Shown here piece after piece: positions 15,566-56,944 of a stretch of DNA of 64,000 nucleotides. Position 1 is the stretch's first letter. Each line of letters starts with the position of its first letter. Origin of the DNA: Eledone cirrhosa (Eukaryota); assembly GCA_964016885.1 (NCBI GenBank), contig OZ024741.1, positions 324,198,001 to 324,262,000 on the forward strand. The letters run 5' to 3'. A model generated the notes under the pieces. The model worked only from the letters and a program-made list of their open reading frames with translations, searched no databases and was not told the DNA's origin. Both the position numbers and the translations under genes were made by a program.

Positions 15566-15581
15566 AAATAAAACAATAATA

Positions 15582-15728
15582 ATAATAATTGTTTCTACCT
15601 TTGGCACAAGGTCAGCAATTATCCAGTACATTACTGGTACTTTATTTTATCGACCACGTATGGATGAAAGGCAAAGATAACCTCAGCGGGATTTGAACTC
15701 AGATCGTAAAGGGACGTAACTATGCTGG
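15582..15728 (-). mobile_element. Nin-domain tRNA-SINE, 5'-truncated
   Basis: Same core and tail as the neighbouring copy. Confidence 0.82.
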
Positions 15729-15733
15729 CAAGC

Positions 15734-15774
<41 letters not shown>

Positions 15775-15786
15775 TAATAATAATGA

Positions 15787-18874: not shown

Positions 18875-18960
18875 AAATAATAATAATAATAATTGTTTCT
18901 ACTGTTGGCACAAGGCCAGCAATTACCAGTGTATTGCTGGTACTTTATTTTATCGACCCC

Positions 18961-18962
<2 letters not shown>
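18875..18962 (-). mobile_element. SINE 3' fragment between Tx1 copies 4 and 5
   Basis: Reverse complement reads GGGGTCGATAAAATAAAGTACCAG...GGCCTTGTGCCAACAGTAGAAACAATTATT. Confidence 0.8.
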
Positions 18963-19011
<49 letters not shown>

Positions 19012-19012
<1 letters not shown>

Positions 19013-35183: not shown

Positions 35184-35515
35184 TTCATACGAAGTTCGTA
35201 ATGATTTAAAGATACTGAACTATACAAAATCCTCGTTTCTACCAAAGCTGCTGCTTTAAGTTTTCTCTGAATCCAGTCAAGGTTTCTCTTATCATTGCTC
35301 TCTGACGTCAGGGCTCATGGCACACAAGTTGAACTGATGTAGTAGAATTTGATACTTTTTCACCTCTGTCCTTTCCCTCTTTTAATTGAATTATATATAA
35401 AAAAAGAAATAGAATTTGAATTTGAACAAAAGGAAGACGATAGCCTTCAAAACACAGCATAGCTTAGTCAGGTCGTTTGCTTGCAAACGAATCGAATATT
35501 ATTATTATTCGATAT

Positions 35516-35700
35516 GGACTGGTGGATTGGCAGTATCGGTAGGGGATCGGATGCCATGCTTTGACGCATTGAGTTACAGCCCTTGCCATTCTAATTTCAA
35601 ATCCGGCAGAGGTTAACTTTGCCTTTCATCCTTACGGGGTCGATAAAATAAAGTACCAGTAATGTACTGGCCTTGTGCCAAAAAGTAGAAACAATTATTA
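35516..35700 (+). mobile_element. Nin-domain tRNA-SINE with 15-bp TSD
   Basis: TSD ATTATTATTCGATAT at 35501-35515 and 35694-35708. Confidence 0.9.
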
Positions 35701-35781
35701 TTCGATATAACCCATACTTACATTTAAAAAAAGAAATGTTATGATTGAAAAGAGAAAACACCTCCATGGAAAAACTAAAGT

Positions 35782-35853
35782 TGCCTCGACCCGTAGTCGA
35801 ACCCGGGTCGACTGCTTGGAAGGCGACCATGCTAACCGTTACACCACAGACGT
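35782..35853 (-). pseudogene. tRNA-Gly(TCC) pseudogene
   Basis: Copy of the 35112 gene with several acceptor-stem and T-stem mismatches (ACGTCTG/TCGAGGC); anticodon retained. Confidence 0.85.
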
Positions 35854-36604
35854 CCTTTCGTGATGACGAATCATTTAATGATTCTAAACTATATATAATT
35901 TGTGTGTCTATCAACGCTACTGTTTTAATTCTTTTGCTATATTCAACCATTTTTTCTCCTTTTTCTCCCTGTATGATACATAGATATGTTAGAGTATTTT
36001 ACACAAGCATCAATGTATGTTTATTCATTACATATGTGTAAATGTCTATGTATATGTGCGAGATTGTGTATATATGTGTGTGCGTGTGTTTATAAGAGAA
36101 TTAACTACTAATCCTTTCTGAAAAGCAACTGTATGTCTTGTATATTTTGCGCGTATGTAGAGAATGTATTCGTGAAATCAAAAGAGTCCTTATGCAATGT
36201 GTTGTATCATTTAAGGATATTGAAACCCTGCATCTCTCAGAGACAAATCACCAAATTTGAGGTGTCTTCTAACTGACCTGTCACTCTAGATTGAATTTGA
36301 TGTAGAAATACCATGAATTTCTCCCTCTGACTATGCTGAGGAAACTGAGAGCAAGTAGAGAAATCTCTCGATAAACCCCGTTTTTATATTATCCTTCTCA
36401 TTTATGGCGGGATTTGATTTCTGAACGTAAAGTACACCGTTTTATATGAAGTTCACAAGGTGTAGCAGAGATATGTTTTCCAACTGACGGTGTAGATTTC
36501 TTCTTTTCTTAATATATATTTCTCAACTACTTATACAGGAGTTTAGATTACTGTCTAGCATAGATAACCTTTCTCTGGAGTTAAGATATGCATATGAGAA
36601 ACGC

Positions 36605-36688
36605 ATCCTTCGGCCTTCAAGACGCATGGTATATTTTCGAGACTTATTTCAGAAAGAAATAGCGTCTTCGACGCCGGGAAATACGGTA
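36605..36688. mobile_element. Isolated Tc1/mariner-pogo-type terminus
   Basis: Ends ...GCGTCTTCGACGCCGGGAAATACGG-TA, with internal AAGACGC/GCGTCTT motif typical of TACCGTATTT-type TIRs. Confidence 0.5.
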
Positions 36689-36792
36689 GGCAATGTTCAA
36701 CAAATGTTTGGCAGTCTGTCTAATTTAGAAATCATTATTAACTAACACACTGGCCTTGTGTCTAAAGTAGAAACAATTATTAACTAACACAA

Positions 36793-36986
36793 GGGCGGTG
36801 GATTGGCAGTATCGGTAGAGAGTCGGACGCCATGCTTTGAAGCATAGAGTTACCTCTCTTTATGATCTGAGTTCAAATCCCGCCGAGGTTAACTTTGCCT
36901 TTCATCCTTACGGGGTCGATAAAATAAAGTACCAGTAATGCACTGGGATAATTGCTGGCCTTGTGCCAAAAGTAGAAATAATTATT
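36793..36986 (+). mobile_element. Nin-domain tRNA-SINE, full length
   Basis: Pol III A/B boxes and GCCTTTCATCCTTACGGGGTCGATAAAATAAAGTACCAG core; flanked by ATTATTAACTAACACA repeats. Confidence 0.9.
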
Positions 36987-37032
36987 AACTAACACACTGG
37001 CCTAAAGTAGAAACAATTATTAACTAACACAA

Positions 37033-37240
37033 GGGCTGTGGATTGGCAGTATCGGTAGAGGGTCGGACGCCATGCTTTGACGCATAGAGTTACGGCCTTT
37101 ATGATCTGAGTTCAAATCCCGCCGAGGTTAACTTTGCCTTTCCGCCTTACGGGGTCGATAAAATAAAGTAACAGTCACGCACGATTTAATCGACTTTCTC
37201 CTTCCCCAAAATTGCTGGTCGTGTGCCTATATAAGAAACC
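37033..37240 (+). mobile_element. Nin-domain tRNA-SINE with alternative longer 3' region
   Basis: Same head and core; tail ...CCCCAAAATTGCTGGTCGTGTGCCTATATAAGAAACC. Confidence 0.85.
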
Positions 37241-37845
37241 AAAGACTCTTTTCAGTTCTCCCGTTCATAAGAACCATTCACATCAGTTTGAAATTACAAG
37301 TTTCTAGAATATATAAATTGCTTCTATGTGGTCGTTTGCCCTGCTAGAAGTAGTAGCCAAAGATTTTTCAAGATTTGGCTGCTATACTAACAACAGAGCA
37401 CACACTACAGTCTTTTAGAAGACGAATTATATGATGATATAGTTGCATACACTCGGTGAAAGCAATCAGCGCAGTCATGGAGCTAAATAACCAAAAAAAC
37501 TACGAAAAGATAATGGATGGAAATATATTAATGAATTGCATTAGGTGTGTCTTTTAATTACCTTTTCTTAAAATATCGAAATCGGTCGGATATAAAGCTG
37601 AATTGTTACTACTACTACTACTACTACTACTACAATGAATATTGCTGTGTTAGGCAATGGTTGATTCGGCAAGTCTGCCGGAATAAATGACTTAATTCGG
37701 TAAGCAACCAATTTTCCCATTCCTCACCCAATACTGATGGTGTGTTTGGCCTATAACACAAAAATTACCTTATCCTTCGTAGCATTCTGCCGATAATTTT
37801 AGTGCGATAATTATTTAATTATTTCTATGTGACGTTTCTTTCCAG

Positions 37846-37977
37846 GTGCCTTTTTACTCCCGTATATTTTATCACTCATTTTCTTGGGAATTCCTTACGT
37901 TTTCATGGAAATATCAATCGGACAGTTTGCCGGACTCGGACCGTTAAGTATCTGGAAAGCCAGCCCAGCTTTTAAAG
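37846..37977 (+). CDS. Internal exon of an SLC6 (NSS) transporter, TM2 region
   Basis: ttccag|...|gtaa, 132 nt, phase 1-1. Translates (G)AFLLPYILSLIFLGIPYVFMEISIGQFAGLGPLSIWKASPAFK(G), the hallmark SLC6 exon. Confidence 0.95.
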
Positions 37978-38451
37978 GTAACATTATCTTAATATTACTA
38001 TTTCCCCTAAATCCTGTCAAAATAGATCTTTACTTCCCATTAAGTTCTAATTTCAAAATATGTTGCAATCTTCTTTATGTTCATTCCTCTAGTATCAGAA
38101 ACCCACCCACTAGAAAGTCTACAACTCTCATTCACAAACAAGTATGACTTTGTAGTATGTATCATGCTGATGTAAGGATTTTACGTATTCTATGCAGTCA
38201 GGAGAAGACACAGTCATCCTCTGGACCCATCCTTCCTTGGTCTAGCGGAAGATCAAGGATATCAGCTGGAAGGAGAGTGGTCTGTATCAGCATTGTGTTG
38301 CTATGTTCTTTATCGATTCTTAAAAGACGAAAGGCAAAGGGAACTTTGGTAGTATTTGAGACCTGAATGCAAAAATCCGAGACATATATCCAACGCTCTA
38401 ACGACACAGGCAAGTCGATCGCTTTACTCGTTTAAGTAAAATACTGAATAT

Positions 38452-38575
38452 GTAATAATTGCTTCTACTTTTGGCACAAGGCCAGCATTACCCCAGCAAT
38501 ACCCCAGTACATTACTGGTGCTTTATTTTATCGACACCCTCAGGATGAGGACCATAACTCTATACTGCCAAGCCA
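38452..38575 (-). mobile_element. Nin-domain SINE, internally deleted
   Basis: Reverse complement of SINE tail and core (CTACTTTTGGCACAAGGCCAGC...TTTATTTTATCGAC). Confidence 0.75.
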
Positions 38576-38859
38576 ATGTAATAATTATCCTGTTGGTTGT
38601 GCTGGGCCTGCGAGTTTTGTTGGGGTTTTTTCTTGGTTTTAATTGCTAATAACCAGATGGTGATGAGTTGGCAGCTCAGCCTCTTACTTAACACGAACGT
38701 CCAGCATAGAATTGAAGAGATCAGAAGCAATGGCAAATTCAGTTATTGATCTCTGTTCTCGGCTTCCTTTATACCATGTGTATATATGGATATCTTTGTG
38801 GTGGAAGTCTGAAAGGGAAATGGTTCAAGACAAAAATGAAGGATCAATGAGTTCTTCCT

Positions 38860-39045
38860 TAACAGGCCAGCAATTGCGGAATGAAGGAGAAATTCGATTA
38901 TGTATTGACTCCAATACTTTCTCCCTACTTTATTTTGTCAGTTCCGGAAGGATGAAAGGCAAATCTTACCTCGACTGTACTTGAACTCAAAACGTAAAAG
39001 AAACTTGCATTTGTGTAATATTCTAACAATTCTACCATTCCATCT
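38860..39045 (-). mobile_element. Older SINE copy of the same superfamily
   Basis: GGAAGGATGAAAGGCAAA...CTCGAC...TTGAACTCA matches the reverse complement of core and B-box. Confidence 0.6.
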
Positions 39046-39428
39046 CCATACCACTAAAAAATACCATGCAATGCAAAAACAACAAATTGTAATACAAATG
39101 TATTACCTGAGAGCAGAGTACAACGATCCGTTTCAGATTAACAGTTGTGTGTAATTAAAACAATTTTCGCTGTTAAAATAATATCAACACTCCCATTCAT
39201 CGAAAATCTCTAGTCTTGGCGATAAATCGGAAATCGATATTAACATCTTTTTAAACATTTAAAAAGTTTTATTTGATGCTAATTTGTATAATGATCACTT
39301 TGACAAAGCATCATTATTATTATTATTGTTTCTACTTTAGGCACAAGGCCAGCAATTACCAAGTACAAGTAATGCACTGGCTAATTGCTGGCCTTGTGCC
39401 TAAAGTAGAAACAATTATTATTATTATT

Positions 39429-42400
39429 GGTCTAATCGGACGTCTTTTGCTCGCTCCCAGTAAGCCGCTTTATTTGCCTGTTAAAATTATTGGTTGTTAA
39501 ACATTTCTTGTTGTGTAAGGGATATAAGCCCTTAGTCTTTGCTCTGACCCAAATATTTGAACATTTTACTTTAAAAAAAACATGGCTGCCCCCCCCCCCC
39601 CCGTAATATGTCTGCTGTCGTGTGACAACGAGGTAAAAGTTAAGAGGAGGGTTAGTGAAATTCATACAACAGACACCACCACAAACAACAACAACAATGA
39701 AAACACTAATTTTGAAAAAAATACCACACCAACTACAAAATACAGACAAAAGGAAAAAATGACAACAAATGCAACAACGATATTAACACCACTATCATGA
39801 AAGTAAACAATGACCACAGCAACAATACAAATTGCACCGAAAACAACAACAACGGTGCCACCAAAAACACAACCAACTACAACAGTGATAACAGCAACAA
39901 CACCAACAACAACATTTGTAGCAGTAGCAACAGCACCAACAACAAGATCAGTAGCAGCAGTAGCTGCAGCAATAATGGCACCGCTGAAAAAGGGGCCACT
40001 TCTTTCGCAGGTGTGGCCCGAAATATAGAGACAGTGCTAGTCACAGAAGAGGAGATGGCAGTCGCAAGAGCCATGGTGTCGAGAAACGACAATAGAGTTT
40101 CCCTGAAACCTCCACCCGATTTCTTCAAAGACCAGCAGCTGCGCACGGTAAGCAAAATGTCACATCGGGTGGAGAGAGCCATGGAGGCTCAAATCCAAAA
40201 GGCCTTGGGGTGCGTCTCGGCGCGCAACACCCACAGCACCCTAGGCAAAAATTTCGCCACAGTAGACATAATTATCGTCACACCCCAACAGGCGTAATCT
40301 CACTCTTTGGAAACCCTAAAGTATGAGTAAATAGTCTTGGTGGCCTCCTACTGCGGGCAGAAAATTGTGAGGGTCAAAGTGACCCAGGTCCCGCTCGACG
40401 TGCCCATACCTTGGTTAGCCGCGTCTGTACTGGCTGGAATCGAGGAGAAGACCACCATACTGAAAATACAGAGAATGGGATGAGAGAACTGGTCAGGAAT
40501 AGGCATGCAAATGCTAATACAGATTGACCAGGAGTGCAGCGAGGCCATCCCAGACATACCCCTTCCAGACGCCACGGAATCTTACATGGAGTATGAGGTG
40601 GGAGGGAAGTGGCAAACAGTCTACCACAAAAAAAAAAATGAAAAACCCCTTAGCTTCACCCTCCAAAAGCGTCAGCACCAACAACAACCACACTACCACC
40701 AGCATCACCAAAAACACCAACATCGCAACCACAACAAAACACACACACCCAACAGCAACAATAAGAAAACAGTCACAAAATCACCCCTCCTCCAAAAAAG
40801 TACACATCCATAAACATGGCAAATAAAGAACTCTTACAACATATAAAGCAGCACACAGACATCAAAGAAAAAAAAACTACTACACCCCAGCAACACCAAG
40901 AACTCTCCCAACAAACATAAACATCATTGAAATCAAAATAGAACATTACAAACTTTCAAGACAAAAATTCCCCAACGCAGTTGGAGACTTCAGAGAGTCG
41001 GTTACCAAGAGAATATACACCGACATCCTCTTGGAAATACCCATGGCCAGCCAAAGCGACGGTTCTACTGTCCCTTCACCACACAATCAAGGTAAGTGAT
41101 ACTTTCTCACTTACCCCGCTTCTCATCCAACAAAGCTGTTCTTAGAATAGGCAGTATAAATGTACGTGGCCTAGGGTCATCTTGGAGGCAGGGTCACCTG
41201 ATCAACGACCTCAGGTCACTAAATATAGATGAGATGGCCATCAGCGAGACCAGAATCTCCGAAGCACGAGCCTTCGCACCAATCTTCGGCGGCTACGATG
41301 TATACGCATCTCCCAGCCCTCCAGGATCGGGTGGAGGGGTTGCCGTGCTTTTTTGGAGAGGCTTGCATCTCGCCATACGGGCCATCTTCCTGGACGCAGA
41401 AGGTAAGTCGATGGTGCTGGACGTGACCGGCAGCGAAGGCAATGCTTTCAGGCTAGTAGCCGTCTACGCCCCAACAGGGGCAGGTCGGCCAGATTTCTTC
41501 AGACGTCTAGAGACCTTTCTTGGAACGTCCCGCTCTTTAGTGTTAGTGGGCGACTGGAACGGTATCTTAGATGCACGCTGGGATTATGTGGGGCTAGTAG
41601 ACAGGGCAGGAGGGTGTAAAAGCCCCAACAACCTGCTCAGACGATTTGAACTGTCTGCAAGGTTTAGATTGGATTATACGAAGTGCCAATGTGGACATGG
41701 GCAAACCGCATCGGGTCATCCAGATCGTATTTAGATAGGGCATTCTGTAGGGAAACAGATAAGGCTAGTGTAGGTTGTCCACAATTTAAAGTAGTCGACT
41801 ACACTGACCACAAGTTTGTGATCTGTTAAGTTGACTTAGATAGTCCCCATAGGCAAGGGCCCGGCTGCTGGAAACTGAACGCGTCGTTCCCGGCGCGCAA
41901 AGCTAACAGAGACCGGATTAGCGAATTAGTTAAGCATGCGTTGACGAGTGCGATAATCAAGTACATGTGGTGGTTTACACTGAAAAGTGCTAATAGAGTA
42001 GAATCGATAAGGTTTAGCAAAGGAGTAGTGATAGAAGAAAATAGAGTAGAGGGAGAGTTAGTTAGAAAGCTAGAAGAGGCGTTTAGGATAGGCATCGCAA
42101 CCGACGTGCTTGCGGCAAGATTGGCATTCGACCAATTCTTCAACGCAAAGCACGAAGGCTGCGTTGTCAGAGCTAAAGCACGTGCTCTAAGACACGAGCG
42201 GACGAAAGCCGTTCAATGGGCCCGGGTAGTGGACGCGCGACGTGGCAACAAGTCCACAATTCGGTCTTTGCCTGATCAAAACGGGCGCATGTTGCTCGAA
42301 CCCGAGCAGATGTGTGTCGCTTTTCATCAACACTTTGCTCAATTGTTCGGGAGCGGCGGCGGGTCGGATCGGAGTATGGACTTCGGTGCATACCTCGACG

Positions 42401-44682
42401 GACTGCCGCGGCTCTCGATGACCGCAGCGCAGTGCTGCGGAAAGCCAATAACAGCAGGTGAAATACGGGAAGCGATGTTTGACAGCACGAGGGGTAAATC
42501 GTCAGGTTTGGATGGTCTGCCATACGAGCTTTATGCGTATATGTCAGACTTGTTCGGCGACCTCTTGGCAGATGTCTACTGCAACTGGCAGCAGAACGGG
42601 AGCATTCCCAGTTTTGTGAGCCGAGGATCGGTGGCGTTGCTGAGAAAAGACCCGAACAAGGTGACGTTATAGACAACTTCAGGCCGATAACTCTGCTAAA
42701 TGCAGAATTTAAGATTTTGGCAAAGGTGTTAGCAAAGAGATTGGAGCTTGTGGTCGGTGATTTGGTGGGAGAGGCGCAGACTTACGCCATTCCGGACAGA
42801 TTCATCCACGACAACCTCCAACTCATGCGATGCATCATAGAGAGGGTGGTTAAGGAACATGGCACGGGTGGGGCCCGGATCAACTTGAATCAATCTAAAG
42901 CATTTTTGGGGGTGAAGGATCACCTGTCGCAACCTTTCAGCACAATGCGCTCGGTCCCTCTTGTCCCTCTTGTACATACTGGCCCTCGAGTAGTTACTGC
43001 ACAAATTGGAGACGATGAGGGGGGTCCGATGAGGGGTGTCCGATGAGGGGGGATCCGTGTCAGCTTACGCCGACGACGTCACCGTGGTGGTGTCGAGCAC
43101 CAAACACGTCCAGATGCTCGGCACCGCTCTCAAGGAATACGAAGCGGTGACAGGAGCAAAGATAAACCAGGAAAATTCGGTGGGCTTACAACTTGGCACC
43201 TGGAGAGGCATTCCATGCCGCCCGACAGCGTCGTGGGGCCCTGGACGGAAGAACCGGTTAAATTGCTCGGGGTCTGGTTCGGTCCGGACCTCCAGATGGA
43301 GAAAAACTGGAGCGAGGTGAGGAGCAGGGTGGCCTCTCTCACCCAGAAATGGACCAAGAGGAGGCTGTCTCTGAAAGGCGGGCAGAGGTGGCGAATGCGT
43401 ACATAGCGTCCGTCATCTGCTATCACCTGACCGTCGTCCCTTGCCCCCGCCCAATTCTGACCAGAATGGAGCGCCTTCTCTTCCGCTTTTTGTGGAAGGG
43501 ACGTGCTTTCATAGTCGAACGATCCATTTGCTGTCAACACCCATTGGGTGGAGGACTAGGCATGCCGTGGCTGATGAGACCAAATATGCGATGAGGCTGC
43601 GACATCTCTGGTGCTTCCTTGACGGTGAACAGGTGTGGTCGCCGTTTGCCAGACACGCGTTTCCCCAGCTCGTCTTGTTGATGGTGTTGCAGTCCTGGAT
43701 CAGGAAAAGACCGAGAGATATCGCTTGGAAGCTGGAATGTCTCCAAGCGCTCACCGCCCTCTACCAGCTGGGCAGTACTATCGGTGGAACATCCACCTCG
43801 GCGTTCTATAGAGGGTTAGTGGAGGGAAAGAGCGACGACGTTCTCGGGGAGACCCTGGGCGTCGAAGACGATCAGCTGTTCGCTTTCTTCAAGAGAACTT
43901 TCAGACCGGGGCCTATGGATAACTTCCAGAAATTCCTGGCCTGGCAGTGCGACGCGCGCGCGTTGCCGGTTCGGGATAAGCTCTACAGGCACGGAGGTAC
44001 TGTCAGCCAAGTCTGTCCGGGATGCGCGCAGGGCGACGAAACCGTCCTGCACGCACACGTTCAGTGCCCGACGATTGCTAACCTGTGGAGCTATGTCGAA
44101 CAGCTGCTGTCGCGTGTAGGACGGATCCGGTTATTTGACTGAGTCCATTGTGCAGATAGCCCTGCCATCCTCCTTTAAAGAGGAGGAAGGGCAGGCAGTT
44201 TTCATCTGCCTAGGTAGCCATGGCGAAAGAGATTGTGTGGTGACAAGGTTGAAAGGGTTGAAGACGGACACTTTCCTCTTCGGCCAATCCCTGATTAAAT
44301 TTTTCAAGTTTGACTTGAAGAGCAAAATCTGGGTGATGAGGCAAGTGCTGTCTTCTAGTGGGTTTGTTGAAAGGTGGGTGAAAGTGTCGTGTCTGGTCCG
44401 AGTGAACGGGCCCGCTCTGCGTATGCACCTGTGGACTGAGGAGTTGGAAAACTGAGAGAAGTCAGGGTGGCCTTGGTCTTTTTTGTGTGGTTTTCGCCAT
44501 GAGCGACCCTCGGAGGTTTCCCCTTTTTGAGGGAATTTTTGTTGTTTGAATTTTTTTAATTTCTAGCCCGATTTTGTTATAACCTGTTTACACGACCAAA
44601 ACCCAGTTTGTATCGTCCTGTACTGTTCTGTGTCGTCTCTAATGTTTTTCTTCGTGTTAGCCCTTGTGGCCAATAAAGAAAC
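39429..44682 (+). mobile_element. Tx1 copy 6 (ATT lineage), near full length, inactive, in SLC6 intron
   Basis: 5' UTR, ORF1 fragments (39797-40297), APE (41096-41734), RT and zinc-finger fragments. Ends GCCCTTGTGGCCAATAAAGAAACC then (ATT)n; 5' flank is a SINE (ATT)n tail. Confidence 0.93.
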
Positions 44683-44693
44683 CATTATTATTA

Positions 44694-44724
<31 letters not shown>

Positions 44725-45254
44725 TATATGTTCGTTCGTTTGTTGACACGTACAGCACATCGCTCCCTTAAGTTTGTTGTTTTTCACACATTTAAATATA
44801 TATTTAAAAAAATAATTTTTTGTTGCAAAGTGCATATATAGCATGTCTTTGCCTTTCGGAAAGCAGACTTCATAATATTTGAATTTTAAAATTCTATTGA
44901 CGTCTATAAAAACCTATAAAACCAGCCAGAACTGCAAAATTCTGCATAATAAAAGCGTGCGTCATGAGTTTAATTCGGATTAGACTCTGAAGACTAATAG
45001 TAAGAATGTTGCCAGCTCCATCACAATAAATATCCTTGACAAAGCCACCAACAACAAAAGCAACAGTAACAACAACAATAACAACAAGAAAAGCAGCAGC
45101 AGCAAGAGCAACGGAAACGACAACAAAAAACAGCAGAAGCTGCAGCAAAAACATCGGCGACACCAATAACAGCAACAACAATAACAGCACAACATAAACA
45201 ACAACAGCAGCAGCAGCCTCAACAGTAGCAAAAAAGAAGCCCCAACAACAATAA

Positions 45255-45644
45255 CAACTGACAGTAGCAGCAGGCTCAACAACAACGGCAACAACAAAAA
45301 CTGTAGGACCCGCCCTACATCTACGGAAGTTACTTATTATGGCGGGTGATGTCGAGTCGAACCCTGGCCCATCCTGCGCGGGATGTTCCAGGACGATCCG
45401 ACAAGACTTCGTGCCCATTTCTTGCTCGACTTGCCGACGTATCTTCCACAGGATCTGCAGCGGCCTGACTCGAATACAGAAAAAGAGTCTTCAAGGATTC
45501 GTGTGTGGCTTCTGTCGGGGGAATAATGTCGTGCCTACCATCCGTCCTGCGGCGATCTCCATTCACCGATGTCAAATCTGGCATGCAAACGATGCCCTGC
45601 ATTGGCGATCGAGAGATACCATCACCAACTCGGCACATCCTTAG
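45255..45644 (+). pseudogene. 2A-like StopGo peptide followed by PHD finger (retroelement-derived)
   Basis: LHLRKLLIMAGDVESNPG|P then C-x2-C...C-x2-C-x4-H-x2-C...C-x2-C. Confidence 0.8.
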
Positions 45645-46189
45645 AGGAATTAGTCCGTCTCCCAATCGCACCTCTAGCGCTTCTGAGGAGGATCCTCAGT
45701 CGCCTGAGGTGAATCAAAAAAAAAAAAAACAAAAAAAACAACAACAACAACAGCAGCAGTTGGAGTAACAACGGTATTGGCAACAACAGCAACAACAAAA
45801 ACAACAACAGCTAAAACAACAATAACAAAAGACAAGCGCAAACAACAACGGCAGCAGCGACAATAACACCAACCACAACATCAGCAAGAACAACCACAAC
45901 TACAAAATCACGGTGGCAGCAAAGGCATTATTCATGAAGGACTTAAGTAGGAGAGATGAATGTTTGGCTCAAGCAATTCATAAAACCTTGTATAACATAC
46001 TGTTCTACTCTGATCAGGCATTTGTAGGCTCGAGAGTTTACAGAGTTTACTCTGAGGCTCTAACAATGTAATTTATGGTTGTACAAATTATTGTAAAGTT
46101 TGTAAAAAAAAGTGTTCTTTGTTCAGTCTTTATTGTTGTAACTATCAATTTTCTTTAACGACTGGCTGCTGAATTGGGGAATCCTAAAA

Positions 46190-47600
46190 ACTATTCAAAC
46201 CCAACATTAACCCCCCACCCACCCCCTCGCTGACTTGAGAAAAGCGACAGAAGAATCGGAGACGAAGGCGGTGAAATTGAGAGCAGGATGAAAAGATTGG
46301 ACAAAAGAAAGAAAACAGTCGAGCTGTTCTCGTGACAGAGAGGTGGCGCCGATACAGTCGTCAATATAACGACCGTATAGCTCAGGAATCGGTCCAGCCT
46401 ACTGGGAGAAGATCTTGGCTTCGACGTAACCAACAAACAAGTTGGCAAAGTGTGGACCCATTCTGGTTCCCATCGCTATCCCAGAGACCTGCTGATAAAA
46501 TTCACCCGAAAAAGAAAATCCATTGAGAGTGAGAACAAGCTCAGCCAGACGGCGAAGAGTGGTAGTGCTACGTGAAGGGGTAGAGCGTAAATCTAAAAAA
46601 TGTTGGAGAGCGTGGAGGCCGTCATCATGAGGGATGACCGTATAGAGAGAGGTAATGTCCAGGGTAAAGAGAAGGCAGGAGAGACCAGGAGAGAAGGTGA
46701 AAGAGTTGAAGAGTCTAAGGGCATGATTTGTATCGTGGAGGTGGGAGCGGAGATTGCCGACCAACGGAGCGAGGATGGTTTCTAAATATTCATAAATTAT
46801 CTCGGTGGGTTAGTTGCACGCAGAAACAGTAGGACGGCCGGGATTATTTTGTTTGTGTATTTTGGAGAGTAAGTAGAAAGTGGGTGTGCGAGGGGTGCGT
46901 ACAATAAGGTTGTTGGCTGTGGGGGATAGAAGAGAGTAGGCGATGAGCTTGTGGATGGTGGAGGACACGAGTTGTTGGTAGCCAGGAGTGGGGTAGGTGA
47001 TAAAGGGCGGTAAAAAGGCTATTGTGAAGCTGGCGGAGAGCCTCAGCCCTATAGAGGTCAGCGCTTCAAACCACTACAGCGCCACCTTTGTCAGCGGGTT
47101 TGATGACAATGTCATCGCGACGCCGAAGATTGCGAAGAGCGGAGAGATCAGTTCACGTGATGTTAGAGCGACGAGAATGCTGGTGGAAACGGAACCGATT
47201 CACAGTACGCCGGCAAGTATCGACAAAGGAGTCGAGGGTGCTGAACTGGCCAGAGCTCGGCGTCCAATGTGATTGCCGGCGACTGAGACGAGTGAAGTCA
47301 TCCGTCTGTGTCGATGATGGCGTGTCGTGAAAAAAATCTTTCAGCTTTAATCGACGGAAAAACCCTTCAATATCGGCATATGTGTGGAACTCGTCGCAGC
47401 TAGATGTGGTTGGTTTAAAACGCAAACCACGGGCGACGAGGGAGCGCTCAGCTTCGGAGAGTGGTAGGTCCTGGGGTAGTGTATCTACAGTGCAGCGACG
47501 TGAGGGAGTGAAATAGGCGAGGCGTAGGTGTCAAGGTGTTTGGGCAAAGCGTGTGCAGCTTCAGTGGTGGAGAGAGAAAAGGGGGTGGTATGTGACGGGA
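46190..47600 (-). mobile_element. Penelope-like RT fragment (different family)
   Basis: FFRRLKLK, PADK, LDITSLYTVIP, QVSGIAMGTRMGPHFANLF, RYIDD. Confidence 0.85.
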
Positions 47601-47674
47601 TAGAGAGGTTAGGGTTGGAGGTGATATAAGTATGGGTGGTGACGGCAGGCGGAGAAAAGGGTGAAAGAAAGAGA

Positions 47675-47743
<69 letters not shown>

Positions 47744-48099
47744 TGGTGTTGTGGCTTACACGGTTTTAAATAATACTGTTTTGAACATATGTGCTCGGAA
47801 ATTATTTCTTAAAATGTCCAGAAAATCTGTAAAACTTTTATCGTCTTGGTTCCTAATAAATCATATCACCTATAACCTAACAACTAAACAGCTATTGTTA
47901 TAATTCTTTTCCTGGAGTGTCTCAATTTCAAAACTACCTGACTGTATGTCTTCTCTAAAACATCGATGCATTCAAGATCATTCAAAGCTTGTGAATAACA
48001 GGGTTTGTTGTGAAACCAATCGACCACGTAACACTCGGGCCGTTCGGTAACATTCTTCCTCCCACTGTTTAATTTTTTTTTTCTGTTCTATATTTACAG

Positions 48100-48357
48100 G
48101 TATTGGTTATTCCATGATAATTATTGCAACCATTCTTGCTATCTACTACGCCGTCATTATAGCATATTCTTTTTACTTCTTCTTTGCCTCATTCCGAAAG
48201 AATTTGCTGTGGTCCAGCTGTTTAAATGTGTGGAATAGCTGCAACTGTTTTACAGAAACACAGAATGCCAAGTTCAAATCCTTCACCCGCTTGCTGGATG
48301 GTCCAAACTTTACCGATTTTAACACTTTTCTTAGTGAAAAGCATTCACACTGTTACA
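48100..48357 (+). CDS. Next SLC6 exon, TM3 and start of extracellular loop 2
   Basis: tttacag|...|gtaagt, 258 nt, phase 1-1. (G)[49 protein letters not shown]...; splices in frame to the previous exon (FKG|IG). Confidence 0.93.
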
Positions 48358-48417
48358 GTAAGTCTGTTTACATTTCTGACTACCATAAAATCCATATATA
48401 AAATCTCCACGTGTGCC

Positions 48418-48514
<97 letters not shown>

Positions 48515-48924
48515 CATATATGTATATATATATATATATGTGTGTGTATGTGTATACATATATGTATATATATATATATATATATTATATATAAATGTGT
48601 GTGTGTGTGTGATCATACGTTATTGCAATATAGACATATACTTGTATAATATGATTATGTATGTGTGCGCAACTGTATGAATATGTATAGATGCTTCCGT
48701 TAACATTCACTTCACATCCAAGCCTACACATATCATATTGAAGATATTGATTACCGATAATTCATACTCACGCAAACGCACACACACTTACGTGCGCGCA
48801 TGCATTCACACACACACACACATACACTCATATATATATATATATGTACGTATATACACATATGTATATATGTTTTTTTTCGTATATGTGAATGTATATA
48901 TATGTACATATGCATGTAGGTGTA

Positions 48925-48976
<52 letters not shown>

Positions 48977-49040
48977 CATACATACACATATACACACATT
49001 TGCGTACACACAACCACACCAGGGAAATATATACCACATG

Positions 49041-49141
<101 letters not shown>

Positions 49142-49548
49142 GTATATATCCATACATATATATAAGAAATATAATCAATTTATTCTAAAACTCTTTTTAA
49201 TAACCCATAAATAACCTTTACACTTATATGGACAAATTATTATTTTACGGATACGTCAATCACCTAAGCCACGCCCCTGATGAATTGGCCAGTACGCTGC
49301 AAATCTGATTGTCAACAGTCTCGAATTAGCTGTCGGTCCCCGACTGTAATTCTTTCCCTCATGGCCTTTTGATGGATAAAAGGTCATGGGCGCGTTACGG
49401 ATCGATGTTCTGTTTTAAGCGCCGAAACATCTAAGATCCATTGTAAACAGCTGACGAAGAGAAACTTTCTTCTCTTGTTTACGTCCCGAGTTCCTGGTAA
49501 CACTTCATTTTCAGTAACCACACATCCTCTCCTCTTTACCTGTATTTT

Positions 49549-49599
<51 letters not shown>

Positions 49600-49894
49600 A
49601 TTTTCTTGGAGATCCATCGTTTAAGAAGATGTCTGCTCCATTTGATTCAACCACCGAAACTATCTGCTCGTAAAATGTTAAGAGACTGAGTTTTCAGCAG
49701 GCACGCACACCCTCAACGTCGTTATCAAGAAAATGCCGGATCCGTGAAAAGAAGCAACGTGAAATAAATTATCTTGGACATGGACACAATGCACAGCCCG
49801 ACATGGGAATTATAGAATAAAACCATATATCATTTCATTACAGAAAAGAAAACATGGTGATGAGCTAAGAATCATAATAAATGTGAAAGAGTGA

Positions 49895-50825
<931 letters not shown>

Positions 50826-51100
50826 GCCTTGACACATGCGTAACATGGTAGGCATTTACTATTTCGAATTCTTACTCTATTTTTTTTATTCTGGTCGGAA
50901 AATCTTGATGGGAATCTGTCATATTGTGTACAGACAATTGATTCTGGCAGAGATAAGTATGAAGAATGCCACAGACGCCATCTTTATTCATTTATTTATA
51001 TATTCGTTCACCTCTTTCTCTACCTCTCTCTTTCTTTCTGTATCTCTCTGTTTCTTTCTTCCGCCTTACCCTCCTTGTGTATATCTATTATGATACTACT

Positions 51101-51224
<124 letters not shown>

Positions 51225-51254
51225 GCATTATTGATGTCAGTATGATATTTATGT

Positions 51255-51420
51255 TGATGTAACTTGTCTATATAATGTCTTCGTTATCCGAGGCTCTTGT
51301 GGCCAATACAAAAAAAATCATCATTTTTATCGTCTTTCCCCGCCCCCAAAATTGCTGACCTCGTGCCAAAAGTAGAAACAATTATTATCATTATCATTAT
51401 TATTATTATTATTGTTGTTA
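51255..51420 (+). mobile_element. Tiny Tx1 3' end plus SINE 3' end stacked in (ATT)n
   Basis: CTTGTGGCCAATACAAAA at ~51296 and CCTCGTGCCAAAAGTAGAAACAATTAT at ~51359. Confidence 0.65.
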
Positions 51421-52020
51421 TTCCTTGAATCTCAGTCATTGATGTTGGTTAACCGGAAAGTCCGTTGGAATGAATATCAAGCCACTACCTGCAGCCTCAG
51501 ATATTCAGGACGTATCGGAGGATTCTTGCTGTTCCAAGCAAGCATGCCTTTTGAAGCGTTCCAAAAAGCGTGAAGGGGCCGATTTTCTTTAACCATCCCT
51601 GGAAACTTTTGGAGATAGTCCCCAGTGCGCCTATGACAATCGGGATCACTTTGACTTCATGGCAGTTCCAAATCCTTTTCACCTCCCACTTTAGGTCCTG
51701 GTATCGGTTAATTTTCTCCCTCGCCTTCTCTTGCACTCTCGTGTCGAAAGGGCAGGCCACATCCACAATCAGACACGATCTTTTTTCTTTGTCCACAATC
51801 ACTAGGTCAGGTCTATTGTGTTCCAGTTTTTTGTCCGTCTGTATCCTAAAATCCCACAGCACCTTCACCTGATTGTTCTCCATCACCGCCTCTGGCCTAT
51901 GCTCATACCATTTCTCAGAATGTGGTAAATTGTTTATTTTGCACAGGTGCCAGTGTATCACCCTGCCCATCACATCGTGTCTCCAGCCCTTATAGTGGGT
52001 CTGGGCTAGGTGTTTACACT
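51420..52020 (-). mobile_element. R4/Dong-clade LINE 3' fragment with intact restriction-like endonuclease ORF
   Basis: ORF 51497-51973: RHD...WDFRIQTD...NRPDLVIV...IVDVACP.D...EKINRYQDL...PIVIGALG...LLGTARILR. (TAA)n on both sides. Confidence 0.9.
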
Positions 52021-52044
52021 ATTATTATTATTATTATTATTATT

Positions 52045-52798
52045 GTTCTTTGAGTCTCAGTCATTGATGTTATTTAACTGGAAAGTTTCTTGAAATGAAT
52101 ATCAAGCCGCTACCTGCAACCTCAGATATTCAGGACGTATCGGAGTGTTCTTGCTGTTCCTAGCAAGCATGCCTTTTGAAGTATTCGAAAAAGTGGGGCT
52201 GGACTAATCTTCTCTAACCATCCTTGGAAACTCTTTGAGATAGTACCTAGTGCAGCTATGACAATCGAGACGACCTTGATTTCATGGCAGTTCCAAAACC
52301 TTTTTAACACCCACTTTAAATCTCGGTACCAGTTAATTTCCTCCCTCTCCTTTACTTGCACTCTCGTGTCAAATGGGCAGGCTACATCTACAATCAGGCA
52401 CGATCTTTTTTCCTTGTCCAAAATCCACCAGGTCAGGCCTATAGTGTTCTAATTTCCTGTCCGTCTTTATCCTTAAATCCCATAGAACCTTCACCTGATC
52501 TTTTTCTATCACCGACTCTGGCTTATGCTCATACCACTTCTCAGAATGTGGTAAATTATTTACTTTGCATATATGCCAGTGGATCACCCTGCCTAGCTCA
52601 TCATGTCTCCAGCCTTTATAGTGAGTCTGGGCTAGGTGTTTACACTCGGATACAATGTGAGCCACAGTCTCCTCTCTCTCTCTCTACAGATCCTACGCAG
52701 TGGGCTAGCCTCCTCCTTGTAAATATGGTGTTTCACCCACTTCGTTCTGAGGGCCCGCTCTTGCGCAGCCATTAGCATTCTTTCTGTAGCCTTTTTTT
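52045..52798 (-). mobile_element. Second R4/Dong 3' fragment, tandem with the first
   Basis: TE..LMAAQE.AL, HIVSEC, RHD and RLE motifs. (TAA)n flanks. Confidence 0.9.
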
Positions 52799-52835
52799 TT
52801 ATTATTATCATTATTATTATAATTATTATTATTAA

Positions 52836-55800
52836 TTGTCCTGAAAAGGGCAATTAAAGCAGAGTCGATTATGTTTAGCAAAGGACTAGTGATAGAGGAA
52901 AATAGAATAGAGGGAGATCTAGTCAGAAAGCTAGAAGAGGCGTTTAGGACAGGCGACGTGCTTGCGGCAAGATTGGCACTCGACCAATTCTTCAACGCAA
53001 AATACGAAGGCTGCGTTGTCAGAGCTAGAACGCGTTCTGCGAAACACGAGAGGACAAAAGCCGTCCAATGGGCCCGGGTGGCAGAGGCGCGACGTGGCAA
53101 CAAAGCCACAATTCGGTCTTTATCTGATCAAAACGGGGGCGCGTGTTGCTTGAACCCGAGCAGATGTGTGAAGCCTTTCAGCAGTACTTTGCTGAACTGT
53201 TCGGGAGCAGCGGCGGGCCGGATCGGAGTATGGACTTCAGTGCATACCTCGGCGGACTGCCACGGCTCTCGATGACCGCAGCACAGTGTTGCGAAAAGCC
53301 AATAACAGCCGGTGAAATACGGGAAGCGATGGCTAACTGCACGAGGGGTAAATCGCCAGGTTTGGATGGTCTGCCCTACGAGCTTTATGCATTTATGCTA
53401 GACTTGTTCAGTGACCTCTTGGCAGACGTCTACTGCAACTGACAGCAGAACCGGAGCATTCCCAGGTTTATGAGTGGGGAGCGGTAGTGCTGCTGAAAAA
53501 AGACCCGAACAAAGGGGATGTTATCGAAAACTTCAGGCCCATAACACTGCTAAACGCTGAGTTCAAGATTTTGGCCAAGGTGTTAGCAACGAGGTTGGCG
53601 CTTGTCGTCAAGGGTCTGGTGGGAGAGGCGCAGACATGCGCCATCCCGGACACATCCATACACGACAACCTCCACCTCATGCGATACATCATGCAGAGGG
53701 TGGTTAAGGAATCTGGCACGGGTGGGGCCCTGATCGACTTGGATCAATCCAAAGCATTCGATAGGGGTTTGGATCAATCCAAAGCGTTTTCAGGGGTTGG
53801 ACCGCTGCGATGTATAGCAACATCTGCTCAGTTGTGAGAGTGAACGGTCACCTGTCGCAGCCGTTCAGCATCATGCGCTCGGTCCGCCAGGGTTTTCCCC
53901 TCTCGTCCCTCTTGTACGTATTGGCTCTCGAGCCGTTACTCCACAAACTGGGGGTGATAAGGGGCGTCCCATACGAACTAGGATGCGGGAAATCCGAGTC
54001 AGCTTACGCCGACGACGTCACTGTGATGGTGTCGAGCACGAGACACGTCCAGATGCTCGGTACCGCTCTCAAGGAATACGAAGCGGTGGCAGAAGCAAAG
54101 ATAAACCAGGAAAAGTCGGTGGGCTTGCAGCTCGGCACCTGGAGAGGCAAATCCATGCCGCCCGACAGCGTCGTGGGGCGTTGGACGGACGGACCGGTTA
54201 AATTGCTCGGGCTCTGGTTCGGACCGGACCTCCAGATGGAGAAAAACAGGAGCGAGGTGACGAGCAGGGTGGCCTCCCTCACCCAGAAATTGGCCGAGAG
54301 GAAGCTGTCCCTGAAAGGCCGGGTGGAGGTGGCGAATGCATACATCGCATCCGTCATCTGCTACCGCCTCACCATCGTCCCTTTCCCCGGCCCCACTATC
54401 ACATAAATGGAGCGCCTCCTTTTCCGCCTTTTGTGGAAGGTACACGCTCCCATGGTCAGACGATCCATCTGCTGTCAACACCGGTTGCGTGGAGGACTGG
54501 GTATGCCATGGCTGATGATGCGCAAACATGCGCTGAGGCTGCGACATATCTGGTGCTTCCTTGACGGTGAACAGTTGTGGTCGCCGTTCGCCAGGCACGT
54601 TTTCCCACAGCTCGTCTCCTTGACGGAGCTGCAGTTCTGGGTCAGGAAAAGACCGAGGGATAGCGCTTGGAAACTGGAATGTCTGCAGGTGCTCACTGCC
54701 CTCTGCCAGCTGGGCACCAGTATCGGTGGAACATCTACCTCGGCGTTCTATAGAGGACTAGTGGAGGGAAGAGCGACGACGTTTTCGGAGAGACCCTGGG
54801 CATCGAAGAAAATCCGCTGTTTGCTCTCTTCCAGAGAACTTTCAGCCCAGGAACTTCCAAAAATCCCTGGCCTGGCAGTGCTACCGGGGAGCGCTGCCGG
54901 TTCGAGATAAGCTCTACAGGCACGGAAGTGTCGTCAGCCGAGCCTGTCCGAGATGCGCGCAGAGAGATGAAACCGTCGTGCACGCACTCGTTAAGTGTCC
55001 GAGCATTGCTGACTTGTGGAGCTATGTGGAACAGTTGCTGTCACGTGTAGGACTGATCCGGTTATCGACTGAGTCCATTGTGCAGCTGGTCTCGGCGTCT
55101 TCCTTCGAGGAGGAAGGGCAGGTGGTTTTCATCTGCCTGGTGGCCATGGCGAAAGAGATTTTGTGGTGGACAAGGTTGAAGGGGTTAAAGATAGATACTT
55201 TCCTCTTCGGCGAATCCCTAATTAACTTTTTCAAGTATCACTTGAGGGTGGAGAGGCAAGTGCTGCCTTCTAGCAAGTTTGTTGAAAGGTGGGTGAATGT
55301 AGCGAGAATGGTCCGAGTGAATGGGACCGCTCTGAATATACGCCTGTAGTTTGAGAAATGAAAAATTGAGAGAGGGCGCTTGCCGTGGTTGTCAGGATGG
55401 CCGTGATCTTTTGTGTAGTTTTCGCCACGAGTAACCTTCGGAGGTTTCTCCCTATTGGGGAATTTTTCATTGTTTCAATTTTCATATTTATTGTTTATAT
55501 ATATATATGTTTTTATGTTTTTTTTTCTTTTCTTATATAAATAATTGTTTCTACGTTAGGCACAAGGCCAGCAATTATCCAGTGTATTACTGGTACTTTA
55601 TTTTATCGACCCCGTAAGGATGAAAGGCAAAGTTAACCTCGGCCGGATTTGAACTCAGAATGGCAAGGGCCGTAACTCTATGCGTCAAAGCATGGTGACC
55701 GACCCTCTACCGATACTGCCAATCCACCGGCTTTTCTTATATAAATAATAAAAATCTTTACACACACAAAACCCACATCGAACCGTCCTGTGCCGTCTGT

Positions 55801-55842
55801 AATGTTTTTCTTGATGTCATCCCTTGTGGCCAATAAAGAAAA
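52836..55842 (+). mobile_element. Tx1 copy 7 (ATT lineage), 5'-truncated
   Basis: RT fragments 53487-54406 and C-terminus to 55349. Ends CCCTTGTGGCCAATAAAGAAAAC then ATTATTATT. Confidence 0.92.
55546..55730 (-). mobile_element. Full-length SINE inserted in Tx1 3' UTR with 19-bp TSD
   Basis: TSD CTTTTCTTATATAAATAAT at 55527-55545 and 55731-55749. Confidence 0.92.
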
Positions 55843-55852
55843 CATTATTATT

Positions 55853-56932: not shown

Positions 56933-56944
56933 AGCATTAATATT

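What the first reader, a model, noticed from the sequence alone, without database searches (positions are those of the whole stretch)
35501..55852. Dominant SINE shares its 3' terminus and target with the ATT-type Tx1
Seen: Tx1 end GCCCTTGTGGCCAATAAAGAAACCATTATT (44660-44689) versus SINE end GGCCTTGTG-CCAAAAAGTAGAAACAATTATT (~35669-35699). All three readable SINE TSDs begin with ATTATT on the SINE strand (35501/35694; 36776/36981; 55527/55731 on minus). Known: stringent LINEs mobilise SINEs that carry their 3' end; L2, CR1 and RTE partners are usual and Tx1 partners rare. Inference: a Tx1-driven SINE whose tails then serve as landing sites for more Tx1 (18875, 39428), a self-reinforcing LINE/SINE/microsatellite loop.
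Basis: partly seen in the sequence, partly recalled or inferred. Interest (0 to 1): 0.8.

Follow-up and report, generated by a model that had tools for sequence, protein, structure and literature searches.

The report
Octopod SINE riding a Tx1-like retrotransposon
The most common short jumping element in this octopus-like genome ends in the same tiny predicted RNA hairpin as a family of repeat-targeting long elements and lands at the same ATT sites, so it is likely copied by their enzyme, a partnership rarely described.

Summary
A ~190-nt SINE (117,891 exact termini genome-wide) and an L1-group, Tx1-like LINE lineage (8,664 exact ATT-type termini) share their last ~24 nt without a gap. Both have a CTTGT loop closed by a 3-4 bp stem, with the loop ending 16 nt before the insertion junction. 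One stem pair is swapped compensatorily: C-G in the LINE, G-C in the SINE. Tx1-ATT1 scored best of 21 LINE-terminus rows; 0 of 2000 shuffles matched it. SINEs make 10-25 bp duplications (107 of 222, control 4) starting Y|ATTAT. They lie on the Tx1 strand in 15 of 15 shared arrays; R4/Dong lies opposite in 17 of 17. A young CR1 also ends in (ATT)n but has another terminus and no such duplication. Two corrections: the SINE's ATT 'tail' is the duplicated target, not part of the element, and Tx1 prefers long (ATT)n arrays (27 of 43 have 5 or more units) whereas the SINE mostly uses short sites (12 of 78). Mobilisation was not tested, and a rare better partner is not excluded. This is a new variant of known stringent LINE/SINE pairs.

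The parts
35516..35693 (+). SINE, short subfamily A, full length; carries one extra A in the 3' spacer
35501..35515 (+). 5' copy of a 15-bp target-site duplication starting ATTATT (3' copy 35694-35708)
36792..36980 (+). SINE-A, full length, with A-box-like and B-box-like motifs (box consensus recalled); 16-bp duplication 36776-36791 / 36981-36996
36957..36967 (+). SINE terminal hairpin GGC-CTTGT-GCC (predicted); loop ends 16 nt before the junction
37034..37241 (+). SINE, longer and older subfamily B, in tandem with the copy above
39361..39428 (+). SINE 3' fragment plus (ATT)5, directly followed by the 5' end of the Tx1-like LINE
39429..44683 (+). Tx1-like LINE, family ATT1, both ends present, ORFs broken; APE endonuclease, RT and zf-RVT pieces
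44660..44670 (+). LINE terminal hairpin GCC-CTTGT-GGC (predicted); followed by AATAAA and the junction 16 nt after the loop
44684..44724 (+). (ATT)14 target array after the LINE
55546..55730 (-). SINE-A inserted antisense into the 3' UTR of a Tx1-like copy; 19-bp duplication 55527-55545 / 55731-55749
52841..55843 (+). 5'-truncated Tx1-like copy split by that SINE; its 3' tip is 55782-55843
55851..56936 (+). 5'-truncated Tx1-like copy of lineage ATT3 (stem AACC/GGTT)
15372..23388 (-). Train of co-oriented elements joined by ATT runs: Tx1-ATT1 (23388-19008), SINE fragment (18964-18894), Tx1-ATT2 (about 18875-15785), SINE (15734-15590), SINE (15565-15379)
51421..52800 (-). Two R4/Dong-like 3' fragments (family name recalled from protein motifs) in the same ATT arrays but on the opposite strand; a control, not the partner
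2101..13492 (+). Three sister Tx1-like copies that target (TATC)n and share the hairpin motif and 16-nt spacing

Best explanation
The SINE is likely copied and inserted by the ORF2 protein of the ATT-targeting Tx1-like LINEs, with which it shares a gap-free 24-nt terminus and a Y|ATTAT insertion site. Shown: shared CTTGT loop, stem with one compensatory swap, loop 16 nt from the junction, 10-25 bp duplications, no element-encoded tail, same strand as Tx1 in shared arrays. Inferred steps: (1) Pol III transcribes the SINE from internal A/B boxes and reads through into the flanking ATT; (2) ORF2 binds the hairpin and adjacent AGAAA; (3) its APE endonuclease nicks the TAAT-containing strand, and the freed primer pairs with the read-through AUUA; (4) reverse transcription starts at a point fixed by the hairpin; (5) a second nick about 15 bp away gives the duplication. 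The duplication recreates the target on both sides, which would explain tandem SINE arrays and mixed SINE/Tx1 trains. The tail probably came from an ancestral ATT-type Tx1, and successive lineages (ATT1, then ATT3) would have served as drivers.
For: Terminus: the two Tx1-ATT1 rows scored 18-19 (against SINE-A) and 20-22 (against SINE-B); all 7 Tx1 rows 6-19 / 8-22; the 14 CR1, RTE, R4 and RNase-H-LINE rows at most 2 / 6; 0 of 2000 shuffles. In 864 kb the best non-SINE matches were Tx1 ends. Hairpin: first three pairs C-G, C-G, G-C in 39, 39, 36 of 39 ATT1; C-G, G-C, G-C in 133, 139, 137 of 144 SINE-A; ATT3 has A-T at pairs 3 and 4 in 18 of 18; spacing 16 nt in 33 of 39 ATT1, 17 of 18 ATT3 and 144 of 152 SINE-A. 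Covariation score 0.385, reached by 1 of 500 shuffles; slid controls at most 0.13. Target: 191 of 222 SINE ends are followed by ATT; duplication median 15 bp. Two Tx1 copies with unique flanks show 14 and 22 bp duplications. Strand: SINE same-strand in 15 of 15, Dong opposite in 17 of 17. Age: SINE-A median 6.6% from column majority (subfamilies pooled), ATT1 3.5-4.7%, incidental ATT3 4.6%. A SINE sits in a 98-99% identical young ATT3 copy with a 15-bp duplication and an empty site in a sister copy. Intact 1152-aa ORF2 copies exist.
Against: The shared stretch is only about 24 nt, shorter than the 50-100 nt of pairs in the papers read (PMC3472496, PMC3747384). The stem is 3-4 bp; it appears in the minimum-energy fold of 4 of 5 Tx1 ends but only 1 of 5 SINE ends, and SINE z-scores are not significant. 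The compensatory swap is one inherited event, and the Tx1 search pattern itself fixed the 3' arm. Tx1 prefers long arrays (27 of 43 with 5+ units; ATT3 median 11), the SINE does not (12 of 78; motif-level expectation 54 of 703). The abundant lineage ATT3 scores only 6 / 10, little above the best non-Tx1 row. No SINE of 83 sampled was under 2.8% diverged, while the best ATT3 copies are at 0.5%. No LINE family carries the SINE's exact stem: hybrid patterns gave 4 and 7 hits, and the 8 of these 11 that were fetched were single SINE or Tx1 variants. TATC-targeting Tx1 share the motif, yet SINEs are not at TATC. Only about 2 Mb of 3 Gb were read.
Confidence: 0.75

Rival explanations
1. An unsampled or rare LINE, possibly another Tx1 sub-lineage with relaxed ATT preference, is the true driver; the sampled Tx1 families are only its relatives.
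For: SINE and Tx1 differ in array-length preference. Several older, unclassified Tx1-like ATT ends turned up. A family of about 500 copies occurs once per 6 Mb and could be missed in 864 kb.
Against: Genome-wide patterns for a LINE-type end with the SINE's stem found only 4 and 7 places. Family searches for RT, APE and RTE domains gave no better terminus.
Confidence: 0.14
2. The very active CR1-like family that ends in (ATT)n moves the SINE by pairing of AUU repeats with the target.
For: Young (98.7% pairwise), intact 945-aa ORF, (ATT)n end on the same strand. CR1 is a usual SINE partner (PMC3747384 Table 1).
Against: Its terminus scores -6 to -2 against the SINE. 18 of 20 copies have no duplication over 9 nt, the other 2 lie in minisatellite or AT repeats, and none has an ATT run at its 5' junction: CR1 brings its own repeats, while the SINE brings none and duplicates about 15 bp.
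Confidence: 0.05
3. The terminus similarity is convergence or chance, and the driver recognises no specific 3' sequence.
For: Short A-rich match; weak SINE fold; crocodilian SINEU are assigned to Tx1 with no shared tail (PMC4494074).
Against: 0 of 2000 shuffles; same loop, same spacing and a compensatory pair; junction fixed to the nucleotide with no poly(A).
Confidence: 0.05
4. An R4/Dong-like element, which targets the same microsatellite, or an RTE moves the SINE.
For: Dong-like copies are abundant in the same arrays; Dong targets TAA repeats (PMC3812793).
Against: Dong lies on the opposite strand in 17 of 17 cases while the SINE lies with Tx1 in 15 of 15. The 2 R4 and 5 RTE termini score -2 or less and end in AAT, GAAT, CTGAGT, GAT or GAA repeats.
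Confidence: 0.01

Closest known systems
Crocodilian SINEU / Tx1-Mar (Kojima 2015, PMC4494074; parts 2-4 of 5 read)
   Same: SINE assigned to Tx1 machinery by shared target and age; tandem insertions around a duplication; SINE target preference weaker than the LINE's in two of three families.
   Different: SINEU have U1/U2 heads and poly(A), target a Mariner, and no LINE sharing their 3' end was found. Here the head looks tRNA-type, there is no tail, the target is a microsatellite motif and the 3' end is shared.
Stringent L1-clade pairs: maize/sorghum ZmSINE2-3 with LINE1-1_ZM; Chlamydomonas SINEX-3 with L1-1_CR (Ohshima 2012, PMC3472496; passages read)
   Same: L1-clade LINE and SINE share a 3' hairpin with conserved loop, variable stem and compensatory changes.
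   Different: Plants and algae, 50-80 nt shared, repeat or poly(A) tails, no target specificity described in the passages read. Here an animal, about 24 nt shared, sequence-specific target.
Kibi (TC)n and Koshi (TTC)n Tx1 families (PMC3812793, PMC4494074; passages read)
   Same: APE-type, microsatellite-targeting Tx1 elements.
   Different: Fish and crocodilian; targets TC, TTC, TTCC, TTTC. ATT and TATC targets are not in those lists, and no SINE partner is named.
Eel UnaL2/UnaSINE and other L2, CR1, RTE pairs (PMC3747384 Table 1, read)
   Same: SINE borrows LINE enzymes through a common 3' end.
   Different: Table 1 lists no Tx1 partner and no mollusc pair. That those elements carry their own 3' repeats and make short duplications is recalled, not from a call.
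Octopus OK/OR1/OR2 SINEs (Ohshima and Okada 1994; not read, seen only as cited in PMC4824008, PMC4758252) and 'tRNA-Deu/tRNA-Core' labels (PMC8967140; passages)
   Same: Abundant tRNA-type SINEs of octopuses; this family probably falls under one of these names.
   Different: Identity could not be tested, as no reference sequence was on hand; no partner LINE is given in the passages read.

Membership tests
L1 group of non-LTR retrotransposons | ORF2 with APE endonuclease, RT and C-terminal CCHC (zf-RVT); RT groups with L1-clade, not CR1/RTE/R4 | tested here: met
   PF03372, PF00078, PF13966 in a 1152-aa open frame; best solved-structure hit human L1 ORF2p, E 2.5e-43 against 7e-18 for R2; 100% branch separating it from the genome's CR1, RTE and R4.
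Tx1 clade | RT phylogeny with reference Tx1 elements apart from L1 proper | tested here: inconclusive
   Own four families form one clade (100; 99 with Argonauta and P0121). It fell among fish/frog elements at SH-aLRT 89 in one quick tree and was unresolved in a second. Automatically named 'Transposon TX1' proteins are among the hits, but no curated Tx1L, Kibi or Koshi sequence was on hand.
Tx1 clade | Sequence-specific insertion, as in many Tx1 families | tested here: met
   ATT repeats follow 74 sampled ATT-type ends (the search pattern required xTT); 11 of 12 ATT1 and 19 of 19 ATT3 5' ends show an ATT run directly or a few bases upstream; sister families sit in (TATC)n.
Tx1 clade | ORF1 with CCHC zinc knuckle | tested here: inconclusive
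   zf-CCHC at E 0.17, below cut-off, in the window's ORF1; none scored in L263 ORF1, though a CxxCxxxxHxxxxC pattern is visible in it.
tRNA-derived SINE (SINE2) | Short, non-coding, high copy, 5' truncations, target-site duplications | tested here: met
   About 190-220 nt; 117,891 + 5,954 exact termini; truncations and duplications.
tRNA-derived SINE (SINE2) | tRNA-related head with Pol III A and B boxes | tested here: inconclusive
   B-box pattern in 38 of 54 full copies, strict A-box pattern in 8 of 54 (patterns recalled). Rfam and ARAGORN did not call the head a tRNA.
tRNA-derived SINE (SINE2) | Pol III transcription | not testable with these tools
   No RNA holder was listed for the LINE query; the SINE was not queried.
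Stringent LINE/SINE pair | Shared 3' terminal sequence and stem-loop | tested here: met
   short (about 24 nt) and the SINE fold is weak.
Stringent LINE/SINE pair | Same insertion signature | tested here: inconclusive
   Nick motif, strand and duplication length agree; array-length preference differs; only 2 Tx1 duplications were measurable.
Stringent LINE/SINE pair | Trans-mobilisation that depends on the shared tail | not testable with these tools
   Needs a cell assay.
MetaSINE | 66-bp Meta domain after the head | tested here: not met
   By eye, the body shows no likeness to BivaMeta-SINE1 or BivaMD-SINE1 in the supplement of PMC4824008; no alignment was run.
Deu/Nin or CORE SINE superfamily | Conserved central domain | not tested
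   A likeness to the Nin/Deu domain is recalled only; motif search in the supplements of PMC4758252 found no match (1 file not searchable).

The most novel reading that the evidence does not exclude
The dominant SINE of octopods is a tail-less passenger of microsatellite-targeting Tx1. A minimal 5-nt-loop hairpin acts as a ruler that sets the start of reverse transcription 16 nt downstream, and is common to ATT- and TATC-targeting lineages. The choice of driver and target is made by pairing of the read-through RNA with the nicked DNA, so the duplicated target is itself the functional tail. This would be the first animal Tx1/SINE pair with a shared 3' structure and the first stringent L1-group pair in animals among the papers searched.
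Probability: 0.35. Interest if true: 0.78.

Novelty: new variant of a known kind. Interest (0 to 1): 0.6.

Why it matters
SINEs make up 11.6% of the Octopus vulgaris genome (PMC13282606) and their expansion is described as octopus-specific (PMC8967140), yet no partner LINE is named in the passages read. A named driver turns that expansion into a testable system, with intact 1152-aa ORF2 copies on hand. It bears on whether animal L1-group elements can be stringent, which Ohshima (PMC3472496) argued from plants and algae only. Sister lineages with one RNA motif but two targets (ATT, TATC) give a natural experiment on what sets target choice: endonuclease or RNA-DNA pairing. It also explains why ATT microsatellites here collect trains of SINE, Tx1 and Dong. 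Nine paper searches found no report of this pair, but Repbase, Dfam, SINEBase and subscription papers were not searchable, so it may be noted there.

Tried and rejected
RTE, R4/Dong, three CR1-like groups and an RNase-H-bearing LINE as partners: rejected by terminus, strand or duplication. A CR1-like end containing TGGCCTGGGCCAA looked like the SINE tail but lies about 20 nt from its end, ends in TA repeats and scored 0-2 anchored. One LINE group (L322/L323) gave no defined 3' end and was left out of the panel. A LINE with the SINE's exact stem: two genome-wide patterns, 7 and 4 hits; 8 of the 11 fetched, 6 were SINE variants and 2 Tx1 variants. Clustering of all ATT-preceding 60-mers showed only the two SINE subfamilies as large families; the fuzzy search skipped matches and was replaced. 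Tx1 duplications were mostly unreadable inside pure arrays. MetaSINE membership: not met by eye. Rfam and ARAGORN did not recognise the SINE head. The careful tree did not finish; both trees are quick trees. Earlier scan findings: none.


Full report
Setting. The window lies in a 3.0-Gb animal genome. The host is inferred to be an octopod: the closest named relative of the LINE protein is from Argonauta hians, 69% identical. The window is crowded with L1-group LINE copies, SINEs and microsatellites. I read about 2 Mb of the genome: 264 kb around the window, 600 kb from 24 positions chosen without regard to content, and targeted loci.

Observation. Everything quoted is in the sequence. Written in register, the LINE reads GCC-CTTGT-GGC and the SINE GGC-CTTGT-GCC, each followed by 13 nt ending AGAAAC(A/C) and then the target.

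The SINE. There are two subfamilies: A, about 190 nt, and B, about 220 nt, older, ending AGAAACC like the LINE. Exact termini number 117,891 for A and 5,954 for B; 82 3'-complete copies in 600 kb suggest about 400,000 copies. A B-box pattern is present in 38 of 54 full copies and a strict A-box pattern in 8 of 54 (patterns recalled). Rfam and ARAGORN did not call the head a tRNA, so tRNA origin is likely, not shown. Of 222 distinct copies, 191 are followed by ATT and 156 by ATTATT. Duplications of 10 bp or more starting at the first base after the element occur in 107 of 222, against 4 of 222 in a shifted control; median 15, range 10-25 bp. In the 78 of these not scored as following another element's end (a rough filter), the base before the site is T or C in 88%, and the site holds at most three ATT units in 63. 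Two empty sites settle that the ATT belongs to the target: a SINE in a young Tx1 copy duplicates 15 bp of ORF1 that stand once in a sister copy, and a SINE fragment in a young CR1 3' UTR duplicates 8-9 bp. The SINE therefore has no tail of its own.

The LINE. ORF2 carries APE endonuclease, RT and zf-RVT, and its best solved relative is human L1 ORF2p. Four sampled families form one clade apart from the genome's CR1, RTE and R4. Placement in Tx1 rather than L1 proper is supported by automatic names and by target specificity, but two quick trees left it weak or unresolved, so I call it Tx1-like. ATT-targeting families are ATT1 (the one quoted; 479 exact termini), ATT2, and ATT3 (8,185 exact termini), which includes young copies 98.4% identical with an open 1152-aa ORF2. 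Sister families target (TATC)n; ATT2 groups with a TATC family, which suggests a target switch.

Shared terminus. Scored on the last 27 nt with ATT left out, the two ATT1 rows gave 18-19 against SINE-A and 20-22 against SINE-B. The 7 Tx1 rows ranged 6-19 and 8-22; the 14 other rows (CR1-like, RTE, R4, RNase-H LINE) reached at most 2 and 6. None of 2000 doublet shuffles reached the ATT1 score. In 864 kb, 178 ends scored 20 or more: 134 had a SINE body, and the best of the other 44 were truncated SINEs and Tx1 ends. The motif is a small hairpin. The first three pairs are C-G, C-G, G-C in 39, 39 and 36 of 39 ATT1 copies, and C-G, G-C, G-C in 133, 139 and 137 of 144 SINE-A copies; ATT3 changes pair 3 to A-T and adds an A-T pair 4 in 18 of 18. 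The loop ends 16 nt before the target in 33 of 39 ATT1, 17 of 18 ATT3, 13 of 16 TATC-type, 144 of 152 SINE-A and 33 of 35 SINE-B copies (the SINE counts are copies whose loop lies at that fixed place, and the Tx1 pattern fixed the 3' arm). On 14 window copies the covariation score was 0.385, reached by 1 of 500 shuffles, with slid controls at most 0.13; relatedness inflates this, as the swap is one event. Against: the hairpin is in the minimum-energy fold of 4 of 5 Tx1 ends but 1 of 5 SINE ends, and no SINE end folds better than shuffles.

Shared target. After 74 ATT-type Tx1 ends the next element was a SINE in 15 cases, all same-strand; a Dong-like element in 17, all opposite; another Tx1 in 14 and a CR1 in 1, same-strand; nothing recognised in 27. 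Only two Tx1 duplications had unique flanks, 14 and 22 bp. The mismatch is array length: 27 of 43 ATT1 ends are followed by five or more ATT units (ATT3 median 11), against 12 of 78 SINE sites (p=2e-7), while 54 of 703 genomic YATTATT sites have that many. The SINE behaves as if any Y|ATTA will do; Tx1 wants an array. I infer that the endonuclease sees the short motif and that the LINE's longer read-through repeats, or selection against large insertions elsewhere, narrow its sites. Weaker SINE preference is also reported for SINEU-1 and -2 (PMC4494074).

Age. Divergence from column majority: SINE-A median 6.6% (n=83, subfamilies pooled, minimum 2.8%), SINE-B 11.8% (n=26), ATT1 4.7% (n=10, picked by exact end) and 3.5% (n=28, picked by similarity), incidental ATT3 4.6% (n=8), best-hit ATT3 0.5% (n=20). 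The ranges overlap. SINE insertions inside young ATT3 and CR1 copies show that the SINE moved recently, though no very young SINE was in the sample.

The loop. SINE ends precede 6 of 12 ATT1 5' ends (the window copy included) against 12 of 97 (ATT)3+ runs in 600 kb (p=0.004), but only 1 of 19 young ATT3 5' ends; SINEs follow 13 of 43 ATT1 ends and 1 of 29 ATT3 ends. So SINE and ATT1 share sites in both orders. This is reuse of a duplicated target rather than creation of new microsatellite: SINE ends precede only 1 of 13 (ATT)6+ runs.

Rivals. The serious one was a young CR1-like family that also ends in (ATT)n. Its terminus does not match, and 18 of 20 copies have no duplication over 9 nt and none has an ATT run at the 5' junction. 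RTE and Dong fail on terminus and strand. A rare, unsampled LINE remains possible; two genome-wide hybrid patterns found no such family.

Literature. PMC4494074 (parts 2-4 of 5): SINEU assigned to Tx1 by target, with no shared 3' end. PMC3747384 (passages, Table 1): the table of pairs has no Tx1 partner and no mollusc pair. PMC3472496 (passages): stringent L1-clade pairs in plants and an alga. PMC3812793 (passages): Kibi, Koshi and Dong targets. PMC4824008 (passages, section 9, supplement parts 1 and 4 of 4), PMC4758252 (passages, 4 supplement files searched, 1 not), PMC5804259, PMC5786205, PMC5753468, PMC8967140 (passages), PMC13282606 (part 1 of 3, passages): no octopus SINE partner named. 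Ohshima and Okada 1994 and Kojima and Fujiwara 2004 were not read. Nine searches found no report of this pair; Repbase and Dfam entries, and supplements not seen, could hold it.

Verdict. Real, and likely a Tx1-driven SINE (0.75). The mechanism class is known; the variant is new in the searched literature: an animal Tx1-like driver, a minimal shared hairpin, a tail-less SINE and a microsatellite-motif target. Interest 0.6.

Noticed in passing
window 35106-35259 and 35776-35928: A tRNA-Gly(TCC) gene (35112-35183, minus) and a 77% identical degenerate copy flank the SINE at 35516 as a direct repeat.
   Followed up: no
window 2101-13492; L002, L004, L203-L204, L221-L222, L237-L240: Several Tx1-like families target (TATC)n and share the CTTGT-loop motif and 16-nt spacing with ATT-type families; ATT2 groups with a TATC family, suggesting a target switch. 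TATC and ATT targets are not in the Tx1 target lists read.
   Followed up: partly
L261-L280: A very young Tx1-like family with open 1152-aa ORF2 in many copies, often in tandem trains about 6 kb apart.
   Followed up: partly
L131-L160, L181-L200, L311-L312: Two very young CR1-like subfamilies (945 and 957 aa open frames) that carry their own (ATT)n and so seed arrays later used by Tx1 and SINEs.
   Followed up: partly
window 51421-52800; L076, L079, L088, L091-L093: At least two R4/Dong-like families share ATT arrays with Tx1 and always lie tail-to-tail with it (17 of 17).
   Followed up: partly
window 39319-39420 and 38453-38548: Short inverted or internally duplicated SINE tail fragments, including a head-to-head pair of 3' ends flanked by (ATT)5 on both sides.
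   Followed up: no
window 23395-26642 (+), 31697-32293 (+), 60563-61330 (-): Long open frames without Pfam hits at E 0.001 (31697-32293 included); by recalled motifs Penelope-like.
   Followed up: no
P0123-P0195: A large group of unnamed assembled proteins 40-50% identical to the octopod Tx1-like ORF2 forms its sister clade; their host and targets are unknown.
   Followed up: no
L319-L321: A LINE with APE, RT and an RNase-H-like C-terminus (motifs recalled) ending in (CAA)n; one copy is followed by Tx1-like elements.
   Followed up: no
window 58411-58775, 61948-62229, 62225-63499: Several 230-285 bp direct and inverted repeats at 86-96% identity, MITE-like.
   Followed up: no
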